Shown piece after piece: positions 1,414-9,317 of a stretch of 12,210 nt of DNA. Position 1 is the stretch's first letter, and each line of letters starts with the position of its first letter. Source of the stretch: a virus. The stretch is taken from UHGV virus genome UHGV-2091730; one strand, 5' to 3'. The notes below the pieces were generated by a model. It saw only the letters and a list, made by a program, of their open reading frames with translations. It was not told where the DNA came from and did no database searches. The position numbers were made by a program, and so were the translations under genes.

Positions 1414-1868
1414 TACGCCTCCTGCTTGTCGCGCAGCAGCTGAAACTCGCAGCTCTGTGGAATAGTCAGGTGGCAACCAATATTCATCGCCCAGGCTTCA
1501 ACCTTACACAGGAAGACATACATCTCTCCGGTATCAAGATCGGAGGTATGGCGTAACGACTGGATAGTGGTGATATCACCGGTTACGACATCAACCAGGT
1601 CTTTGGTTTCATAACCGAGATATGTGTGTTTGAGAGCATCTTTTACCCAAGCTGGAGTGGCGAACGTTTTACCCTTGCTGATGAGGTATTCACTGATTTC
1701 GCTGTACCACATGTGGCTGAGTGCATTCTGGGAAAGACTGCGTCTCTCGCGCCACGGTTTAAGCACCATGCGAAAGCATTTGCCGTCCTCCAGATAAGGT
1801 TGGATCTGCCGACCGATAGCGGTGAAGTTACCGCGATGCAGTTTGATGCCATCTTGTGGGAAGTTCAC
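1413..1868 (-). CDS. ybcN: NinB/YbcN family protein (151 aa)
   Basis: 151 aa with an S-L-S-Q-N...W motif like lambda NinB (SLDQNRKLW). GTG start with GGAGG upstream. Length and position match DLP12 YbcN as recalled. Confidence 0.7.
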
Positions 1869-1987
1869 GCTTCACCTCCGCAGAGATCAAACGCTGGATG
1901 CAAGATATCGCAGGTGCATTTCTGCATCTGTGAAGGGAGAAGAGAGTTTGGATTGTATGTGCGCATAAACGTCCCCGTTTAGCGCAG

Positions 1988-2020
1988 AAGTCACCGGAGG
2001 AGTTCAAACTCCGGTGACTT
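1988..2020. other. Perfect 12-bp inverted repeat (AAGTCACCGGAG / CTCCGGTGACTT) with 9-nt loop; stem-loop at the nin-block/cargo boundary
   Basis: Read directly from the sequence. No U-tract on either side, so not a canonical intrinsic terminator. Confidence 0.6.
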
Positions 2021-2089
2021 AATTATGACAAGTTGATTATTGAAAATCAAAAGTCATTTAAACAATAATGATACCCAGCAAGAGATTTC

Positions 2090-2491
2090 TTATTTTAACT
2101 CATAGATCAGACAGTCAACGATTTCTAAACCATTTACCATAGAATTAGAAACGCGAACTTTACCATCGTTGACTCTAGCAAATCCTTTTAACATTTTATA
2201 AATAAAAGCTGAATCCCCCTTAGCCTCAATTGCTTCTAATGGTATCGGCTTATACTTTTTTGATATGCTATTTCTATTTATCTCACTGATTTTTCTATAT
2301 ATTTCTGCCGGTCCACGTTCTGAGAAGTCACTGATAACTAAAATATATCTCCAAGATAGATCTGGGTAATAAAACCACATTGCAGCATCAATGGTTAAAT
2401 TCTGTAACTTGAGTTTTTTTAATAAAAATTGACCTGAGAATTCCATATCTTTTGTCAACTCTCTGCCGATTACCAGTGTGCTTTTACCCAT
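2090..2491 (-). CDS. Hypothetical protein (133 aa), downstream partner of the HEPN-like gene
   Basis: ATG at 2489-2491 with GGAG 8 nt upstream. Overlaps the upstream gene by 22 nt. About 30-35 percent GC by hand count. No family recognised. Confidence 0.6.
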   Translation of the reverse strand: MGKSTLVIGRELTKDMEFSGQFLLKKLKLQNLTIDAAMWFYYPDLSWRYILVISDFSERGPAEIYRKISEINRNSISKKYKPIPLEAIEAKGDSAFIYKMLKGFARVNDGKVRVSNSMVNGLEIVDCLIYELK

Positions 2492-2886
2492 TTCAAAACT
2501 CCAGAATTTTGGTCACCTACAGCATCAAACAATTGTTCGGCCATAGCTTTACTTATGTTATTGTCGTATCTAAATTGCTCGCTCCAGTCTTTAACGACCG
2601 ACCAGTTAATCTCCAACGAAACATCATTTTTTGCGTCAGCAATCAAAATTTGATGTAAGTTGGCAATTTTGAGAAGTTGCGACAAATCATGAGTATATGA
2701 ATCATTTACGACTTTTTTGTTTGGAAACTCATGTTGTAAAAATGACTTGGCAATACAGGCCTTCAATGCACATTCAACTGCATACCCACAAAGATAATAT
2801 GCACCATGAAAAAAGCCATGATCAAGCAAGCATTTGGCCTCATTAAGCCTAGTGTCAGATAATGCTTCAAGGTCGTTTTTATTCAT
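2470..2886 (-). CDS. HEPN-like domain protein (138 aa), putative toxin/effector of a two-gene module
   Basis: Motif order matches the classical HEPN pattern: GAYYLCGYAVECALKA, then THDL, then FRYD. Weak RBS. AT-rich. The domain call is pattern recognition only. Confidence 0.5.
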   Translation of the reverse strand: MNKNDLEALSDTRLNEAKCLLDHGFFHGAYYLCGYAVECALKACIAKSFLQHEFPNKKVVNDSYTHDLSQLLKIANLHQILIADAKNDVSLEINWSVVKDWSEQFRYDNNISKAMAEQLFDAVGDQNSGVLKWVKAHW

Positions 2887-3304
2887 ACAATTATAACTTG
2901 AATTATCCTAATTTTTATGATTATACCCTTATCAGGTATGATGTAGGAACTGAAAACAATATTGGATATCATTTTCGATATTTCTCTGCAAATTCCAGCC
3001 CACAGGATCTCGGTGTACAATCTGTCGCTGATCGCGCAAATTTAGGGTCAATCACTTCATTTTTTGCATCAAACCCTCACTAACATCGAACGATTATAGT
3101 ACAAGTAGTGTTCTTGACTTCTCATTAAACCGTCAGCATTCAATTAATTACAAAATACTAGCGGCATTTCTCTCCCGCAACTTTATTACAGCCGTTCAGA
3201 ACGTAAATGCGTCAATACTCGAATCAACTGATCATCCTGCCACGACTGAAATCTCAAATAGGCCGTTTCTCAAGTAAGAGATTTTGAATGCATTATTGGC
3301 TACT

Positions 3305-3333
3305 GAAATAAAAAACCCAGCGCCAACTGGGTT
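3305..3333 (-). terminator. Rho-independent terminator for the signal-peptide protein gene
   Basis: On the minus strand, a 7-bp stem (AACCCAG / CTGGGTT) with 6-nt loop followed by TTTTTATTT, about 20 nt past the stop at 3351. Confidence 0.6.
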
Positions 3334-3350
3334 CATATGAAATTTTTTTG

Positions 3351-3845
3351 TCATTTCCAATTGCAAGACTGTGAAATTTTTTCCACAACCTTATCAATCT
3401 CAGACAAGTCAAACTCAACTACTTGCATAGTTGATCCATAAGGTTCAAACCCAAAAATAGCTTTTTTATGCTTAGCCAAGGTCTTTATAAATTGTATTGG
3501 TTGTGGAGCAAATGCAGAATCACCGCCTTCCCCACCACCCCAAACACTCTTGACCGGCTTTCCGCCATCTAACCGCACTGTAATTCTTGGGTTGTCCGAA
3601 CCCATATAATCATTGAATGATAAATAGGCATCTGTTTTGTTATCACTACAACGCAACACCAGTGAAGTTGCACGATCAGTACCTGCTTTGTTATATGAAT
3701 CTGGTGATAAATTAAGAGCCACAAAGTCAGTCTGGTCAGTCATTTTATTTATCTCAGACTTTGTTATCCACGGCCCTAACTTCTCTACACCAGCATTTGC
3801 TGTAAACGAGGCACTTATGACAAAGGCTAAAATAAATTTTCTCAT
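3351..3845 (-). CDS. Secreted/periplasmic protein of unknown function (164 aa) with N-terminal signal peptide
   Basis: N-terminus MRKFILAFVISASFTANA is a Sec signal peptide with no lipobox. AGGAGA 7 nt upstream of the ATG. Own terminator. Two Cys in the mature part. AT-rich. Confidence 0.7.
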   Translation of the reverse strand: MRKFILAFVISASFTANAGVEKLGPWITKSEINKMTDQTDFVALNLSPDSYNKAGTDRATSLVLRCSDNKTDAYLSFNDYMGSDNPRITVRLDGGKPVKSVWGGGEGGDSAFAPQPIQFIKTLAKHKKAIFGFEPYGSTMQVVEFDLSEIDKVVEKISQSCNWK

Positions 3846-3991
3846 AACCCTATCTCCTTGGCTTCAAAGAACTAAATATTATCAAGTCTCTTGCCACTAG
3901 AAAACCCACTTTATTTCCAAACTCTGATGGCATTCCTGAAAATCCGCTTCATACTCACTTGCCCCGCCCTATCATCCTGAGTAGCTAACCG

Positions 3992-4165
3992 TTAAACAAA
4001 CGTTCGCCAGACCTTACCATCAATGACCAGGATTCCTGCACGCGCCATTTTAGCTGCTGCCTGATTTATGCAGGTTACTGTCACACCTGTTGCCGCAGCA
4101 ACGTCCTGCGCACAGAAGCTCTTATGCGTCCCCAGGTAATAAATAATTGCCTCTTTGCCCGTCAT
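3992..4165 (-). CDS. ren: Ren-like protein, apparently short (57 aa) compared with lambda Ren
   Basis: Hand translation MTGKEAIIYYLGTHKSFCAQDVAAATGVTVTCINQAAAKMARAGILVIDGKVWRTFV matches the lambda Ren N-terminus as recalled. ATG overlaps the P stop (ATGA). The ORF ends where the AT-rich cargo begins. Confidence 0.6.
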   Translation of the reverse strand: MTGKEAIIYYLGTHKSFCAQDVAAATGVTVTCINQAAAKMARAGILVIDGKVWRTFV

Positions 4166-4863
4166 ACACTTGCTCCTTTCAGCCCAAACTTAGCTTTGAT
4201 TTCTGCGATCTTCGCCAGAGCCTGTGCACGATTTAGAGGTCTACCGCCCATGACAGGAAGCTGTTTTACTGGTTCAGGTATCGCCTCACCACGGTTAATT
4301 CGCGCGGTCATACAGGACAGTTCATCGGCAGCCTTGCGCCGTAATTCCGCATCAGTAAGCGCATTGGCCCGCATGTTCTGGTACAGGTTGGTAACCAGCC
4401 AGTAATGCGCGTTCGATTTCCACGGATAAGACTCTGCATCCGGATACAGGCCACGCTTCCGGCAATACTCGTAAACCATATCAACCAGCTCGCTGACGTT
4501 TGGCAGCCCGGCGTTAACGGATGCTTCTTCCCGGCACCAGGCGACAAACTGCCCGGGTGATGGCAGGAATGGTCGATTCTGCCGACGGGCTACGCGCATT
4601 CCTGCGTTAACCTGTTCCATTGTGGTGATCCCGTTTTCCCGGAAAGCCAGAACCCACTGGCGGCGGATTTCGTTCAGTTCATTCTGGTCACGGTTAGCCA
4701 GGCTCGCCGGGAAAGTTGCCAGTAACTGGCTGAACACACCGTTGATGATCTGCGCTACCTGCTGTACCTGCGGCTTTTCGTCGTACTGTTCCGGCATGTT
4801 GTTGGCGATCCGACGCATCTGCTCACGGTCAAAGTTAACCATCTGTGCGGCGATGTTTTTCAT
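4162..4863 (-). CDS. P: Replication protein P (DnaB helicase loader), lambda type
   Basis: 233-aa translation MKNIAAQMVNFDREQMRRIANNMPEQYDEK... recognised as lambda P. ATG overlaps the O stop (ATGA). Confidence 0.92.
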   Translation of the reverse strand: MKNIAAQMVNFDREQMRRIANNMPEQYDEKPQVQQVAQIINGVFSQLLATFPASLANRDQNELNEIRRQWVLAFRENGITTMEQVNAGMRVARRQNRPFLPSPGQFVAWCREEASVNAGLPNVSELVDMVYEYCRKRGLYPDAESYPWKSNAHYWLVTNLYQNMRANALTDAELRRKAADELSCMTARINRGEAIPEPVKQLPVMGGRPLNRAQALAKIAEIKAKFGLKGASV

Positions 4864-5354
4864 AAATCCATCCCGTAAATCCAGTCAGTGTTTGTCAGGT
4901 CGAGTTTTGGTTTTCTGGCTGTCACGCCAGCCTGTTGCTTGTTACGGTTGATTTCGAGCTGGGTCCACTTGTCGCGGAGTTTAGCCGGACTCAGCACGTT
5001 ACCGGACCAGAAGTTGTCCTGGCATGCCCAGCGGAACAGCACGCACATGTCGCGGTGGTTACGTCCATCACGTTCACGCATCAGGCGGATATCGTTAGCC
5101 CACCCTGCAAAATTCGGTTTTCTGGCTGATGGCGCGATGGTCTTCACCATGTCAAACATCCACTCTGCGGCGGTCAGGTCTTCTGCTGTCCCCCACTTGC
5201 TGCCGCTCTGAATTGCAGCATCCGATTTCATCACAGGAAGATCGTTTTCTGGCTGGTCAGAGGATTCGTCAGAATTCTCGGACGAAAAAGGTTTTATATT
5301 GTCTTTTGTTAGTTTGTCTTTTGTGTTTACCTGATTCGGGTACCTGGACTGCAT
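4860..5354 (-). pseudogene. O: Replication initiator O, C-terminal fragment only; N-terminal domain and ori iterons absent
   Basis: From LTKDNIKPFSSENSDESSDQPEND onward it matches the lambda O C-terminal half. The first ATG has a TAG two codons upstream and no RBS. The AT-rich ori-proximal segment and GAATTC (5272-5277) are kept, but no iterons. Confidence 0.8.
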
Positions 5355-5542
5355 CAGCTAATTTACGCGGACGACTTTATCTGCACCGCGGCATCGAGCG
5401 CACTTATACCCGTGATTTGCTCGTGGAAGTTTTTCTCGACGGACGCGGTAACGGCCTGAATCACTAATCCCCTTTCCTGTTTTCCTATTCAGCCTGGCAT
5501 TTCGCGGGCGATATTTTCACAGCCATTTTCAGGAGTTCAGCC

Positions 5543-5839
5543 ATGAACGCTTATTACATTCAGGATCGTCTTGAGGCTCAGAGCTGGGCGCGTCACTACC
5601 AGCAGATCGCCCATGAAGAGAAAGAGGCAGAACTGGCAGACGACATGGAAAAAGGCCTGCCCCAGCACCTGTTTGAATCACTCTGTATCGATCATTTGCA
5701 ACGCTGCGGGGCCAGCAAAAAAGCCATTACCCGTGCGTTTGATGACGATGTTGAGTTTCAGGAGCGCATGGCAGAACACATCCGGTACATGGTTGAAACC
5801 ATTGCTCACCACCAGGTTGATATTGATTCAGAGGTATAA
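5543..5839 (+). CDS. gam: Gam (RecBCD inhibitor), short 98-aa form
   Basis: [54 protein letters not shown]... recognised as lambda Gam. An in-frame TAA at 5465-5467 rules out the long form. Confidence 0.92.
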
Positions 5840-5844
5840 AACGG

Positions 5845-8040: not shown

Positions 8041-8262
8041 ATGGCAGACATAATTGATTCAGCATCAGAAATTGAAGAATTACAGCGCAACACAGCAATA
8101 AAAATGCGCCGCCTGAACCACCAGGCTATATCTGCCACTCATTGTTGTGAGTGTGGCGATCCGATAGATGAACGAAGACGCCTGGCCGTTCAGGGTTGTC
8201 GGACTTGTGCAAGTTGCCAGGAGGATCTGGAACTTATCAGTAAACAGAGAGGTTCGAAGTGA
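8041..8262 (+). CDS. TraR/DksA-family C4 zinc-finger protein (73 aa)
   Basis: CxxC-x14-CxxC (CCEC ... CRTC) after an acidic/helical N-terminus (MADIIDSASEIEELQRNTAIKMRRLNHQ), typical of phage TraR-like proteins. Confidence 0.7.
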   Translation: MADIIDSASEIEELQRNTAIKMRRLNHQAISATHCCECGDPIDERRRLAVQGCRTCASCQEDLELISKQRGSK

Positions 8263-8414
8263 GCGAAATTAACTAGAAGCCAAAGATAAAATCATCGCTG
8301 AGCAGGAGAAAATCGCTAACGGAGAAAAGACAGTAAGTCAGTATATGAAAACCGCATGATATCATCAGATAAAAATCGATCGTAAAGCGAAATATTCATA
8401 CCAGAATAAACGAG

Positions 8415-8438
8415 TCGAGGTAAATTATATTACCTCGA
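8415..8438 (-). terminator. Possible terminator hairpin downstream of the membrane-protein gene
   Basis: 8-bp inverted repeat TCGAGGTA / TACCTCGA with 8-nt loop, followed on the minus strand by a modestly T-rich stretch. Weak. Confidence 0.3.
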
Positions 8439-8472
8439 TAAATTAACTAAAACTTGCCCGCTATATACTATC

Positions 8473-9075
8473 TCATTCAGTATCATCACGCGCGGTCTGT
8501 GCATATGTCACTACCGCACCTAATGTATTAATTTTCTTTTCAACATAGATAATATTATCGTACTCATAATTGCCATACGGATAGCAAATGCGAATATTCT
8601 CATGTAGATCGGGGTCATCCACCTCAGCTCCAGAACAACTTTTTGAACTACCGGAAGTATACCGATACGGTGCAACATAAGACGATGTCTCTCCAGGCAA
8701 AAAATAAGTTAGTGTTGTAAGGGGTATAATCAGAAAAAATCCAGAAAATATGCATATCCCTGCATAAACCTTAAGGTATGCTGACAGACTCTTCCAGCCG
8801 CTTTGTTTTACTATCCCCTTCTTAACCCAAAACAGAGATAACAGAAAAGCTATTCCCATGCTAAACAGAATGTAATAGTGGGATATACTCTGATTAAGAA
8901 ACGTGACCCTGTAGATATCTGCCCGCCACCAGAAGAAAAGGAAAATAAAGATCAGCCCTGAAACTGTCATGCAAATCAAATAAGGATACGAATCTTTTTT
9001 CATGTTTAGCGCCCATAAAATTTTTCCTGACCCGGACAAATTTACCATCCATTTTTTGCGCAGAAAATAGCTCAT
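8473..9075 (-). CDS. Integral membrane protein of unknown function (200 aa; three predicted TM helices, about 60-aa soluble C-terminal tail)
   Basis: Long ORF on the strand opposite to all flanking phage genes. About 35 percent GC by hand count. Hydrophobic stretches LICMTVSGLIFIFLFFWW, YYILFSMGIAFLLSLFWV, VYAGICIFSGFFLIIPLTTLTYFL. Start uncertain: no strong RBS at any in-frame ATG. Confidence 0.6.
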   Translation of the reverse strand: MSYFLRKKWMVNLSGSGKILWALNMKKDSYPYLICMTVSGLIFIFLFFWWRADIYRVTFLNQSISHYYILFSMGIAFLLSLFWVKKGIVKQSGWKSLSAYLKVYAGICIFSGFFLIIPLTTLTYFLPGETSSYVAPYRYTSGSSKSCSGAEVDDPDLHENIRICYPYGNYEYDNIIYVEKKINTLGAVVTYAQTARDDTE

Positions 9076-9317
9076 TACTTACTGCACAATAATACACAAA
9101 ATTGCGTAAATTTTTTGCATGGATTTTAGCTCTTTCAGCCGACATTTAAGGGGTAAATAGCATTTCCTAAAAGCAACTGCACCAACCCAACAGAATGGGC
9201 TACCGCTTACGTTGAGAGCAAAAAAGTGTATAGCAGCAATGAACAGCATCCTCGCACTGACGAGGATTTCTTTTATCTGAACTCGCTACGGCGGGTTTTG
9301 TTTTATGGAGATGATAA

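What the first reader, a model, noticed from the sequence alone, without database searches (positions are those of the whole stretch)
2090..2886. Overlapping two-gene cassette with a HEPN-like first protein in the ren-to-ninB cargo slot: candidate toxin-antitoxin or anti-phage module
Two minus-strand ORFs (138 aa, then 133 aa) overlap by 22 nt, which suggests translational coupling. They sit in a block of about 30-35 percent GC, against about 55 percent in the flanking phage genes by hand count. The 138-aa protein shows the motif order of classical HEPN domains (GAYYLCGYAVECALKA, then THDL, then FRYD); HEPN domains are typically RNase toxins or abortive-infection effectors. No canonical Rx4-6H is obvious, so it may be a divergent or non-canonical HEPN. 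The 133-aa partner matches nothing I recognise; it is not an obvious MNT nucleotidyltransferase because no GS...D.D motif is seen. The gene order (HEPN first) is the reverse of usual HEPN/MNT pairs.
Basis: partly seen in the sequence, partly recalled or inferred. Interest (0 to 1): 0.75.

Follow-up and report, generated by a model that had tools for sequence, protein, structure and literature searches.

The report
Conserved HEPN two-gene prophage cassette
A low-GC insert in this E. coli lambdoid prophage carries a HEPN-fold (RNase-type) gene overlapping a gene of an undescribed family; the same pair recurs across many bacterial phyla, which makes it a good but untested candidate for a new toxin-antitoxin or anti-phage module.

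Summary

The genes are an obligate pair. HEPN is followed by the partner in 127/127 loci with enough sequence, and the partner is preceded by HEPN in 106/106. No third gene is conserved nearby. The overlap is exactly 22 nt in 104 loci. The partner's ATG lies inside the HEPN W133 codon and its Shine-Dalgarno in the G129-V130 codons, with selection visible at synonymous sites. HEPN starts mostly lack a Shine-Dalgarno.

Best reading (confidence about 0.5): a mobile TA/abortive-infection-like module, with a weakly translated HEPN RNase effector and an over-produced protein neutraliser. Toxicity, neutralisation and phage defence are untested. Novelty: new variant of a known kind.

The parts
2470..2886 (-). 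HEPN-T-type gene (138 aa), the predicted RNase effector. Invariant residues in 42 family members: R13, Y30, Y31, G34, Y35, E38, C39, K42, F54, P55, H66, W95, W101, R106, Y107, G129.
2090..2491 (-). Partner gene (133 aa) of an unannotated family; the predicted protein neutraliser or regulator of the HEPN protein. Conserved across the family: W39, W47, G60 and Y130 invariant; G20, Y65, R113, G121 and D126 nearly so.
2470..2502 (-). Translational-coupling junction. GGAG (2502-2499) is formed by the HEPN G129-V130 codons. The partner ATG (2491-2489) sits inside the HEPN W133 codon. The HEPN stop codon is at 2472-2470. The overlap is 22 nt.
   Evidence: column counts over 131 loci. (exactly 22-nt overlap in 104 of 120 pairs found by the ORF scan). 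(Gly129 codon third base is a purine in 134/169 against 158/338 for control Gly codons, p=1e-12; codon-132 third base is A in 124/169). (Shine-Dalgarno duplex energy -6.0 at partner starts against -1.8 at HEPN starts).
2920..2949 (-). Putative promoter of the cassette: a perfect -10 TATAAT (2925-2920) and a weak -35 TTCCTA (2949-2944) with an 18-nt spacer. It lies 33 nt upstream of the HEPN ATG, which has no Shine-Dalgarno.
   Evidence: sequence. (TATAAT conserved in 9 of 12 diverged enterobacterial versions). (homology among diverged versions stops about 45 nt upstream of the ATG). The consensus scan did not report it because the -35 matches only 3 of 6, so it is an inference.
1907..3271 (.). 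Block shared at 98.6% identity between two different E. coli prophage contexts, with either a TagO-like gene or a P22AR-C gene upstream. It is the unit that moves within E. coli prophages.
3313..3334 (-). Intrinsic-terminator-like hairpin that ends the upstream cargo gene (3351-3845). It marks the HEPN cassette as a separate transcription unit. This is context, not part of the module.

Best explanation
The two genes form a self-contained, horizontally mobile two-gene module of the toxin-antitoxin / abortive-infection kind. Here it is carried as cargo (a 'moron') in the nin region of a lambdoid prophage.

Proposed mechanism:
- The upstream gene encodes a minimal HEPN-T domain. I infer it to be an RNase that uses R106 together with the alternative His H66, with E38 and K42 nearby, instead of the canonical Rx4-6H.
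- The HEPN gene has a poor ribosome-binding site, so little HEPN protein is made.
- The downstream partner starts from an ATG and a GGAG that are hard-wired into the last 33 nt of the HEPN coding sequence. It is therefore always co-expressed, probably in excess.
- The partner is inferred to bind the HEPN protein and hold it inactive. It would act stoichiometrically, not by AMPylation, because it lacks nucleotidyltransferase catalytic residues.
- Release would follow loss or titration of the partner, for example on phage infection or loss of the element.

Shown here: both folds, the family memberships, obligate pairing across phyla, the coupling signals and selection on them, mobility, and the variable neighbourhoods.

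Inferred, not shown: RNase activity, toxicity, which protein neutralises which, the trigger, and any anti-phage effect.
For: HEPN identity:
- Pfam PF05168 above its gathering score.
- Invariant polar residues R13, E38, K42, H66 and R106 across 42 sequences of 47-78% identity. This matches the alternative-His active site proposed for AF0298-like HEPN-T and AbiV (PMC3710099).
- The same paper reports that a genome-scale toxin screen found HEPN proteins lacking the motif to be effective toxins.

Obligate pairing:
- The ORF scan found the partner directly downstream in 120 of 131 loci. The 7 apparent exceptions with enough sequence all carry it on re-check, and the other 4 are cut by a contig end.
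- A scan for the partner's own C-terminal motif found 106/106 partners with HEPN directly upstream.
- Partners from Chloroflexota, Woeseiaceae and Bacteroidota match the partner profile at hhalign probability 97-98%.
- No third gene is conserved within 1.5 kb in 182 loci.

Coupling and stoichiometry:
- Exactly 22-nt overlap in 104 loci.
- ATG inside the W133 codon and GGAG in the G129-V130 codons.
- Constraint at synonymous sites, p=1e-12.
- Strong Shine-Dalgarno at 87% of partner starts against 15% of HEPN starts.

Asymmetry of the two genes:
- HEPN evolves more slowly: mean pairwise identity 51% against 35%, higher in 96% of 968 comparisons, r=0.87.
- In the one E. coli genome with an indel, HEPN is truncated while the partner is intact.

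Mobility and conflict context:
- 190 of 5426 E. coli genomes, always in prophages and with differing neighbours.
- The same nin slot in Klebsiella prophages.
- An Acinetobacter prophage end next to AbiH, and a small plasmid between BrnTA modules.
- A PIN/HicB/Fic toxin-antitoxin island in a Woeseiaceae genome.
- Isolated insertions between housekeeping genes elsewhere.
- All 42 HEPN members match the PADLOC candidate-defence protein PDC-M28A weakly.
- In a Deinococcus variant the partner domain is fused to DUF3800, a predicted RNase H-like nuclease used by type VII retrons.
Against: - There is no experimental evidence for toxicity, neutralisation, RNase activity or phage defence.
- No His lies in the canonical Rx4-6H position. 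The spatial proximity of H66 and R106 could not be checked, because model coordinates are not exposed.
- The partner has no DNA-binding domain of the kind that autoregulates most type II toxin-antitoxin operons.
- pI values give no toxin/antitoxin signature.
- The module is rare on plasmids (5 of 72,556) and in isolated phages (1 of 50,697). Many environmental copies sit among housekeeping genes rather than in defence islands.
- Three metagenomic loci have a split partner gene; in one of them (L174) the HEPN gene looks intact. If that is not an assembly error, it argues against strong toxicity.
- The partner-DUF3800 fusion fits an adaptor or sensor role as well as an antitoxin role.
Confidence: 0.5

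Rival explanations
1. Sensor-effector defence pair rather than a toxin-antitoxin pair. The partner would be a sensor, adaptor or positive regulator that recruits or activates the HEPN RNase when it detects a phage cue. HEPN alone would not be toxic.
For: - Obligate pairing and coupling fit this equally well.
- In Deinococcus the partner domain is fused to a second predicted nuclease, DUF3800, as expected of an adaptor.
- The partner's conserved residues (W39, W47, R113, D126, Y130) lie on beta-strands of the model, which could form a binding surface.
- One metagenomic locus has an intact HEPN with a split partner.
- Other prophage HEPN defences (HepS, Tha) are activated by phage proteins rather than by loss of an antitoxin.
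Against: - The excess translation signal on the partner and the weak one on HEPN are more typical of an inhibitor kept above its target.
- The partner evolves faster, as antitoxins do.
- The one truncated copy in E. coli is HEPN, not the partner.
Confidence: 0.2
2. Roles reversed. The downstream 133-aa protein is the toxin or effector, and the upstream HEPN domain is a non-catalytic antitoxin or regulator, as in the canonical antitoxin-first type II order.
For: - HEPN is the 5' gene in every locus, the usual antitoxin position (PMC3710099).
- It lacks the canonical Rx4-6H.
- HEPN domains without catalytic residues are known as binding domains.
Against: - HEPN keeps an invariant set of polar residues of the kind seen in enzymes, matching a published alternative active site.
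- The partner has few conserved polar residues.
- The downstream gene, not the upstream one, carries the strong ribosome-binding site.
- HEPN is the slower-evolving gene.
- HEPN is the gene found truncated in E. coli.
Confidence: 0.1
3. A non-conflict accessory complex: a two-subunit RNA- or nucleotide-binding or processing factor. It could be a domesticated, catalytically dead relative of MNT-HEPN, with no toxicity and no role in defence.
For: - Many copies lie co-directionally between housekeeping genes, such as purM-purH and ddl-PASTA.
- The fold match to nucleotidyltransferases is weak and catalytic residues are absent.
- Domestication of MNT-HEPN pairs is documented (PMC3710099).
Against: - The distribution is patchy and spans many phyla, with differing neighbours and no conserved third gene.
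- In Enterobacteria and Acinetobacter the pair lies in prophage cargo slots, with atypical GC.
- It neighbours toxin-antitoxin and Abi genes in several loci.
Confidence: 0.12
4. A phage counter-defence or host-takeover function, expressed with the early (nin) genes during lytic growth.
For: The cassette sits in the delayed-early nin region of lambdoid prophages in E. coli and Klebsiella.
Against: - Most family members are chromosomal in non-phage contexts.
- A conserved promoter-like TATAAT of its own and a terminator on the upstream gene suggest autonomous expression.
- It was found in only 1 of 50,697 isolated phage genomes.
Confidence: 0.05

Closest known systems
MNT-HEPN dyads with a PF05168 'HEPN-T' protein (TT1696, AF0298, ST0689, TM0613 type)
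   Same: - Same Pfam family.
- Best structural matches of the HEPN model.
- Minimal single-domain protein of about 120-140 aa.
- The Arg of the motif is kept, the motif His is absent, and an alternative conserved His lies upstream (PMC3710099).
- Two-gene, toxin-antitoxin-like organisation.
   Different: - The partner is not a recognisable MNT. None of 67 members matches NTP_transf_2 or any other Pfam family.
- Only one nearly invariant acidic residue (D126) and no GS motif.
- HEPN is the 5' gene here, whereas MNT almost always is in those dyads.
HepT/MntA type VII toxin-antitoxin systems (SO_3166/SO_3165, Aphanizomenon and Legionella HEPN-MNT)
   Different: - HepT belongs to DUF86 and has Rx4HxY, neither of which applies here.
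- MntA neutralises by AMPylating HepT (PMC7641770, abstract seen). The partner here lacks the catalytic residues.
- The gene order is reversed.
PADLOC candidate system PDC-M28
   Same: All 42 HEPN-family members match PDC-M28A, a profile of the same length (138 positions).
   Different: The matches are weak (best E 7.5e-12, 29.7 bits for the window protein), so this is a sister family. None of the 67 partners matches any PADLOC model.
AbiV (Lactococcus) and the prophage HEPN defences HepS and Tha
   Same: HEPN effectors carried by mobile elements or prophages. Anantharaman et al. place AbiV's alternative His at the same position as in the HEPN-T family.
   Different: - AbiV is neutralised by an RNA, making it type III. 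HepS and Tha are single-gene systems.
Toxin-first type II toxin-antitoxin operons (rnlAB, higBA, hicAB, brnTA)
   Same: The toxin gene is upstream and the protein antitoxin downstream. rnlA is also a HEPN RNase with an anti-phage role (abstract of PMC8266594).
   Different: There is no sequence or domain relationship with those antitoxins. The comparison rests on gene order and on my own knowledge of those systems.

Membership tests
HEPN superfamily, Pfam PF05168 (HEPN-T clade) | Match to the family HMM above the curated threshold | tested here: met
   27.8 bits against a gathering score of 22, covering residues 12-118. PF05168 is precomputed for most of the 120 listed homologues.
HEPN superfamily, Pfam PF05168 (HEPN-T clade) | Four-helix HEPN fold | tested here: met
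   [not shown]
HEPN superfamily, Pfam PF05168 (HEPN-T clade) | Canonical Rx4-6H catalytic motif | tested here: not met
   R106 is invariant, but residues 107-113 are Y-D-N-N-I-S-K and no His is conserved there. This does not exclude membership of the clade: PMC3710099 describes the motif His as typically absent in AF0298-like HEPN-T proteins.
HEPN superfamily, Pfam PF05168 (HEPN-T clade) | [quoted passage not shown] | tested here: inconclusive
   H66 is invariant in 42 sequences and lies between the helix at 26-46 and the helices at 78-98, as described. Its spatial proximity to R106 could not be measured because no coordinates are available.
HepT/MntA (type VII HEPN-MNT toxin-antitoxin) | Partner is a minimal nucleotidyltransferase with GS and DxD catalytic motifs | tested here: not met
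   No Pfam match for any of 67 partners. The only conserved acidic residue is D126, and there is no GS motif.
HepT/MntA (type VII HEPN-MNT toxin-antitoxin) | Nucleotidyltransferase (Pol-beta-like) fold of the partner | tested here: inconclusive
   [not shown]
HepT/MntA (type VII HEPN-MNT toxin-antitoxin) | MNT gene 5' of the HEPN gene; HEPN of the DUF86 type with Rx4HxY | tested here: not met
   HEPN is 5' in all loci. The Pfam match is to PF05168, not DUF86.
Type II-like toxin-antitoxin module (generic) | Two small adjacent co-directional genes, strictly co-inherited and mobile, with variable neighbours | tested here: met
   plus the contexts.
Type II-like toxin-antitoxin module (generic) | One product is toxic and the other neutralises it by binding | not testable with these tools
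   This needs expression and rescue assays and pull-downs. The only indirect hints are, plus one in-frame fusion in a metagenome-assembled genome.
Type II-like toxin-antitoxin module (generic) | Antitoxin carries a DNA-binding domain for autoregulation | tested here: not met
   No HTH, RHH or AbrB match in the partner or in HEPN. The partner model is a single alpha/beta domain.
PADLOC PDC-M28 | Both components match the system's models | tested here: not met
   Component A matches only weakly. No component B match for any of the 67 partners.

The most novel reading that the evidence does not exclude
This is the E. coli prophage representative of an undescribed family of HEPN-T toxin / protein-antitoxin (or abortive-infection) modules that spans many phyla. 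Its partner would be a catalytically dead descendant of the MNT nucleotidyltransferase. It would have switched from enzymatic (AMPylation) to purely stoichiometric control, moved to the 3' position, and had its ribosome-binding site and start codon fixed inside the HEPN coding sequence. The HEPN would cleave RNA with an alternative H66/R106 active site.
Probability: 0.3. Interest if true: 0.65.

Novelty: new variant of a known kind. Interest (0 to 1): 0.55.

Why it matters
HEPN RNases are central effectors of CRISPR accessory systems, toxin-antitoxin modules and abortive infection. The PF05168 'HEPN-T' branch, which lacks the canonical catalytic His, has little functional characterisation that I could find.

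This family offers a compact model in E. coli, present in O157, O26 and O111 STEC prophages. With it one could test whether the alternative His/Arg site is catalytic, and how a HEPN is controlled by a partner that is not an enzyme.

It would also give a function to an unannotated protein family of roughly 800 clusters at 50% identity. It adds a candidate defence or addiction gene to the nin-region cargo slot of lambdoid prophages.

The junction, in which conserved codons also serve as the next gene's ribosome-binding site and start codon in many phyla, is a clean example of dual coding constraint.

Tried and rejected
- Sequence searches of both family profiles against all PDB chains: no significant match. 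At E up to 10, the broad partner profile gave only chance-level hits (best E 0.18).
- NCBIfam: no match for either protein. PHROGs: only families of unknown function.
- Pfam and PADLOC scans of 67 diverse partners: only scattered chance-level hits.
- AlphaFold-database fold search for the partner: that library was not available.
- pI comparison as a toxin/antitoxin signature: uninformative.
- Rfam scan of 1850-4000 for an RNA antitoxin or regulator: nothing near threshold. An AbiV-like type III arrangement is therefore not supported.
- Search for a conserved third gene: none; the commonest flanking family occurs in 8 of 182 loci.
- Literature searches (RefSeq accessions, PDC-M28, HEPN with lambdoid prophage, HEPN toxin with antitoxin): no description of this pair. 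The library covers only open-access papers and bioRxiv, so this is not proof of absence.
- The search for related loci with partner alignments failed because the alignments are too divergent. I replaced it with a degenerate DNA motif scan.
- The partner-DUF3800 fusion as a common architecture: rejected. It was found in only two Deinococcus clusters.
- The TagO/VasI-like gene upstream as part of the module: rejected. It has its own terminator and neighbours the pair in only 8 genomes.

Full report
OBSERVATION

The two minus-strand ORFs exist exactly as described: 2470-2886 (138 aa) and 2090-2491 (133 aa). Both start with ATG and they overlap by 22 nt. GC is 0.34-0.37 across about 1950-3150, against 0.48-0.54 and 0.52-0.58 in the phage genes on either side. 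The low-GC block continues to about 3900 because a second, separate cargo gene lies upstream (3351-3845).

The window is a lambdoid prophage. It carries Q, rusA, ybcO and ninB/ybcN at the low-coordinate end. Then come the cassette, a ren remnant, P, a truncated replication gene, gam, bet, exo, xis and int, and finally ybhC. The quoted motifs are present. No His follows R106 within 4-6 residues.

PROTEIN 1 IS A BONA FIDE HEPN

- Pfam HEPN (PF05168) scores 27.8 bits against a gathering score of 22.
- An AlphaFold2 model built on 42 homologues has pLDDT 94.
- RefSeq already names it 'HEPN domain-containing protein'.

These matches belong to the 'HEPN-T' branch, originally found next to minimal nucleotidyltransferases. 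For this branch and for AbiV, Anantharaman et al. [quoted passage not shown]

That pattern is what I see. Across 42 family members (47-78% identical to the window protein), R106-Y107 and H66 are invariant, as are R13, E38 and K42. H66 lies between the second helix and the later core helices of the model. I could not measure the H66-R106 distance, so catalytic competence is inferred.

PROTEIN 2 BELONGS TO A LARGE, UNANNOTATED FAMILY

- It has no match in Pfam, NCBIfam or PADLOC, and its PHROG family has no assigned function.
- A profile search of 1.84 billion cluster representatives found 792 relatives at E <= 0.001. The 150 listed are almost all single-domain proteins of 120-150 aa.
- None of 67 diverse members matches any Pfam or PADLOC model beyond chance.
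- The model is confident (pLDDT 92) and is an alpha/beta domain: a1-b1-b2-a2-b3-a3-b4-b5.
- Conserved residues are W39, W47, G60, Y65, R113, G121, D126 and Y130. There is no GS motif and no carboxylate triad, so it is not an active nucleotidyltransferase.

Whether it is a degenerate MNT descendant stays open.

THE TWO GENES ARE AN OBLIGATE PAIR ACROSS PHYLA

I fetched 131 loci through the HEPN family. They comprise 80 species-representative genomes, 41 viral contigs, the window, and loci fetched earlier. The genomes come from Acidobacteriota, Chloroflexota, Planctomycetota, Desulfobacterota, Gammaproteobacteria, Bacteroidota, Verrucomicrobiota, Nitrospirota and others, including one Aenigmatarchaeota metagenome-assembled genome.

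- A partner HMM found the partner directly downstream in 120 of the 131 loci. Of the 11 others, 4 are cut by a contig end and 7 do carry the partner on re-inspection. One of these, L066, is an in-frame HEPN-partner fusion.
- The reciprocal test used a degenerate DNA pattern for the partner's own C-terminal motif. It returned 118 metagenomic loci with a partner. All 106 with enough upstream sequence have HEPN directly upstream. Three further hits are frameshift-split partners that still lie behind a HEPN gene.
- Partners from Chloroflexota, Woeseiaceae and Bacteroidota match the enterobacterial partner profile at hhalign probability 97-98%.
- No third gene is conserved within 1.5 kb: the commonest flanking family occurs in 8 of 182 loci.
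- Pairwise identities of the two proteins are correlated (r=0.87). HEPN is the more conserved in 96% of 968 comparisons (51% against 35% mean identity).

THE JUNCTION IS HARD-WIRED

- In 104 loci the overlap is exactly 22 nt.
- The partner's ATG is the last base of HEPN codon 132 plus the first two bases of the near-invariant W133 codon. A GGAG is formed by the invariant G129 and the V/I130 codons, with 7 bases between it and the ATG.
- The third base of the Gly129 codon is a purine in 134 of 169 unique genes, against 158 of 338 for two other invariant Gly codons (Fisher p=1e-12). The third base of codon 132 is A in 124 of 169. The ribosome-binding site and start codon are therefore selected at synonymous sites.
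- HEPN starts have almost no Shine-Dalgarno (mean duplex energy -1.8 kcal/mol; 15% at or below -4). Partner starts do (mean -6.0; 87% at or below -4). The partner's is the stronger in 92% of 78 unique cases.

I infer low HEPN output and coupled, higher partner output.

CONTEXT AND MOBILITY

- The identical pair (>=99% identity) is in 190 of 5426 complete E. coli genomes, once per genome and always on the chromosome. The strains listed include O157:H7, O26 and O111.
- A 1.36-kb block (1907-3271) is shared between prophages that have different genes upstream.
- Diverged versions (65-85% nucleotide identity) occupy the same nin-region slot in Klebsiella prophages. In Acinetobacter the pair lies at a prophage end next to umuDC and, in one case, AbiH. 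It also lies between two BrnTA modules on a 13.9-kb plasmid.
- Elsewhere it is an isolated insertion between housekeeping genes, or sits in a PIN/HicB/Fic toxin-antitoxin cluster.
- It is rare on plasmids (5 of 72,556) and in isolated phages (1 of 50,697).
- Among diverged enterobacterial versions, homology upstream of the ATG extends only about 45 nt. That stretch contains a perfect TATAAT (2925-2920), conserved in 9 of 12 versions. The upstream cargo gene has its own terminator. The cassette therefore looks like an autonomous transcription unit, although this is an inference.
- In this particular window the prophage has lost its whole immunity region, so read-through from pR is not available.

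EXTRA CLUES

- In the single E. coli genome with an indel in the cassette, HEPN is truncated to 59 aa and the partner is intact.
- On a Deinococcus plasmid, a 42%-identical HEPN overlaps, again by 22 nt, a 460-aa protein. Residues 1-130 of that protein belong to the partner family (hhalign 99.2%), and residues 156-376 match DUF3800.
- DUF3800 is a predicted RNase H-like nuclease, associated with type VII retrons and with Cas12a2 (PMC7736814 and PMC10910872). The fusion is rare, in two Deinococcus clusters only.
- All 42 HEPN members match the PADLOC candidate-defence protein PDC-M28A, but only weakly (best E 7.5e-12). It is a sister family, not the same system.

MECHANISM

The best-supported reading is a toxin-antitoxin / abortive-infection-like module. 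A weakly translated HEPN-T RNase would be held in check by a co-translated, more abundant and faster-evolving protein partner. That partner would act by binding, because it lacks nucleotidyltransferase catalytic residues.

Shown: folds, families, obligate pairing, coupling signals, mobility. Inferred: RNase activity, toxicity, the direction of neutralisation, the trigger, and any defence role.

Rivals, in order of weight:
- A sensor-effector pair in which the partner activates or targets HEPN. The DUF3800 fusion and one locus with a split partner favour this.
- Reversed roles, with the partner as toxin.
- A domesticated, non-conflict complex.
- A phage counter-defence function.

COMPARISON AND NOVELTY

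The HEPN protein is a member of PF05168 / HEPN-T. The system is not HepT/MntA: it has no DUF86 domain, no Rx4HxY, no catalytic MNT, and the reverse gene order. It is not PDC-M28. It is not AbiV, which has an RNA antitoxin. It is not HepS or Tha, which are single genes.

I found no paper describing the pair, within the limits of an open-access library. I rate it a new variant of a known kind: a HEPN two-gene conflict module with an uncharacterised partner family and an unusually fixed coupling architecture.

Interest is moderate (0.55). The idea is not surprising to a specialist. But the family is large, conserved, experimentally tractable in E. coli, and bears on how non-canonical HEPN domains work.

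Noticed in passing
window 4860-5843 (junction near 5339): The prophage lacks its whole immunity region. A 164-aa remnant of the replication gene (4860-5354, -) directly abuts gam (5543-5839, +). Close relatives such as NZ_CP048330 carry the YdaT-domain gene, the cro-like and cI-like (S24 peptidase) genes and kil between them. In 5426 complete E. coli genomes the only place covering >=80% of this stretch (NZ_CM169495.1) does so in two pieces spread over 1373 bases. So this is a defective, deletion-bearing prophage without pL or pR.
   Followed up: partly
window 3313-3845: A second low-GC cargo gene lies just upstream of the cassette. It encodes a 164-aa protein with an N-terminal signal-peptide-like sequence and a borderline VasI/TagO (type VI secretion-associated) Pfam match (26.7 bits against a cut-off of 26.5). 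It is followed by its own terminator-like hairpin (3334-3313). It neighbours the HEPN pair in only 8 E. coli genomes.
   Followed up: partly
window 8250-9150 (ORF 8473-9075, -): A third low-GC block (0.36-0.40) holds a 200-aa ORF with several hydrophobic, transmembrane-like stretches. It sits between the exo-side early genes and xis/int and has no Pfam match. It may be another cargo gene, for example a superinfection-exclusion function.
   Followed up: partly
window 3992-4165: ren is reduced to a 57-aa ORF. RefSeq annotates the equivalent locus as 'protein ren; frameshifted; internal stop'.
   Followed up: no
L261 4995-6763 (Deinococcus sp. AB2017081 plasmid NZ_CP140099.1): A HEPN relative (42% identity) overlaps, by the same 22 nt, a 460-aa protein made of a partner-family N-terminal domain (hhalign 99.2%) fused to DUF3800, a predicted RNase H-like nuclease. 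The fusion was found only in two Deinococcus protein clusters.
   Followed up: yes
L066 5953-6777 (Bryobacterales MAG): HEPN and the partner are joined in one 274-aa reading frame. This is either a natural fusion or a 1-nt assembly error. If real, it supports physical association of the two proteins.
   Followed up: partly
[not shown]
   Followed up: partly
window 1984-2012 (- strand): A perfect 10-bp inverted repeat (GTCACCGGAG ... CTCCGGTGAC) lies in the phage backbone between the cassette and ninB. No T-run follows it. It falls in the segment shared with phage 82 and lambda-like phages, where the phage 82 record (X92588.1) annotates orf33, a possible regulator-binding site and promoter signals under the shared stretch.
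   Followed up: no
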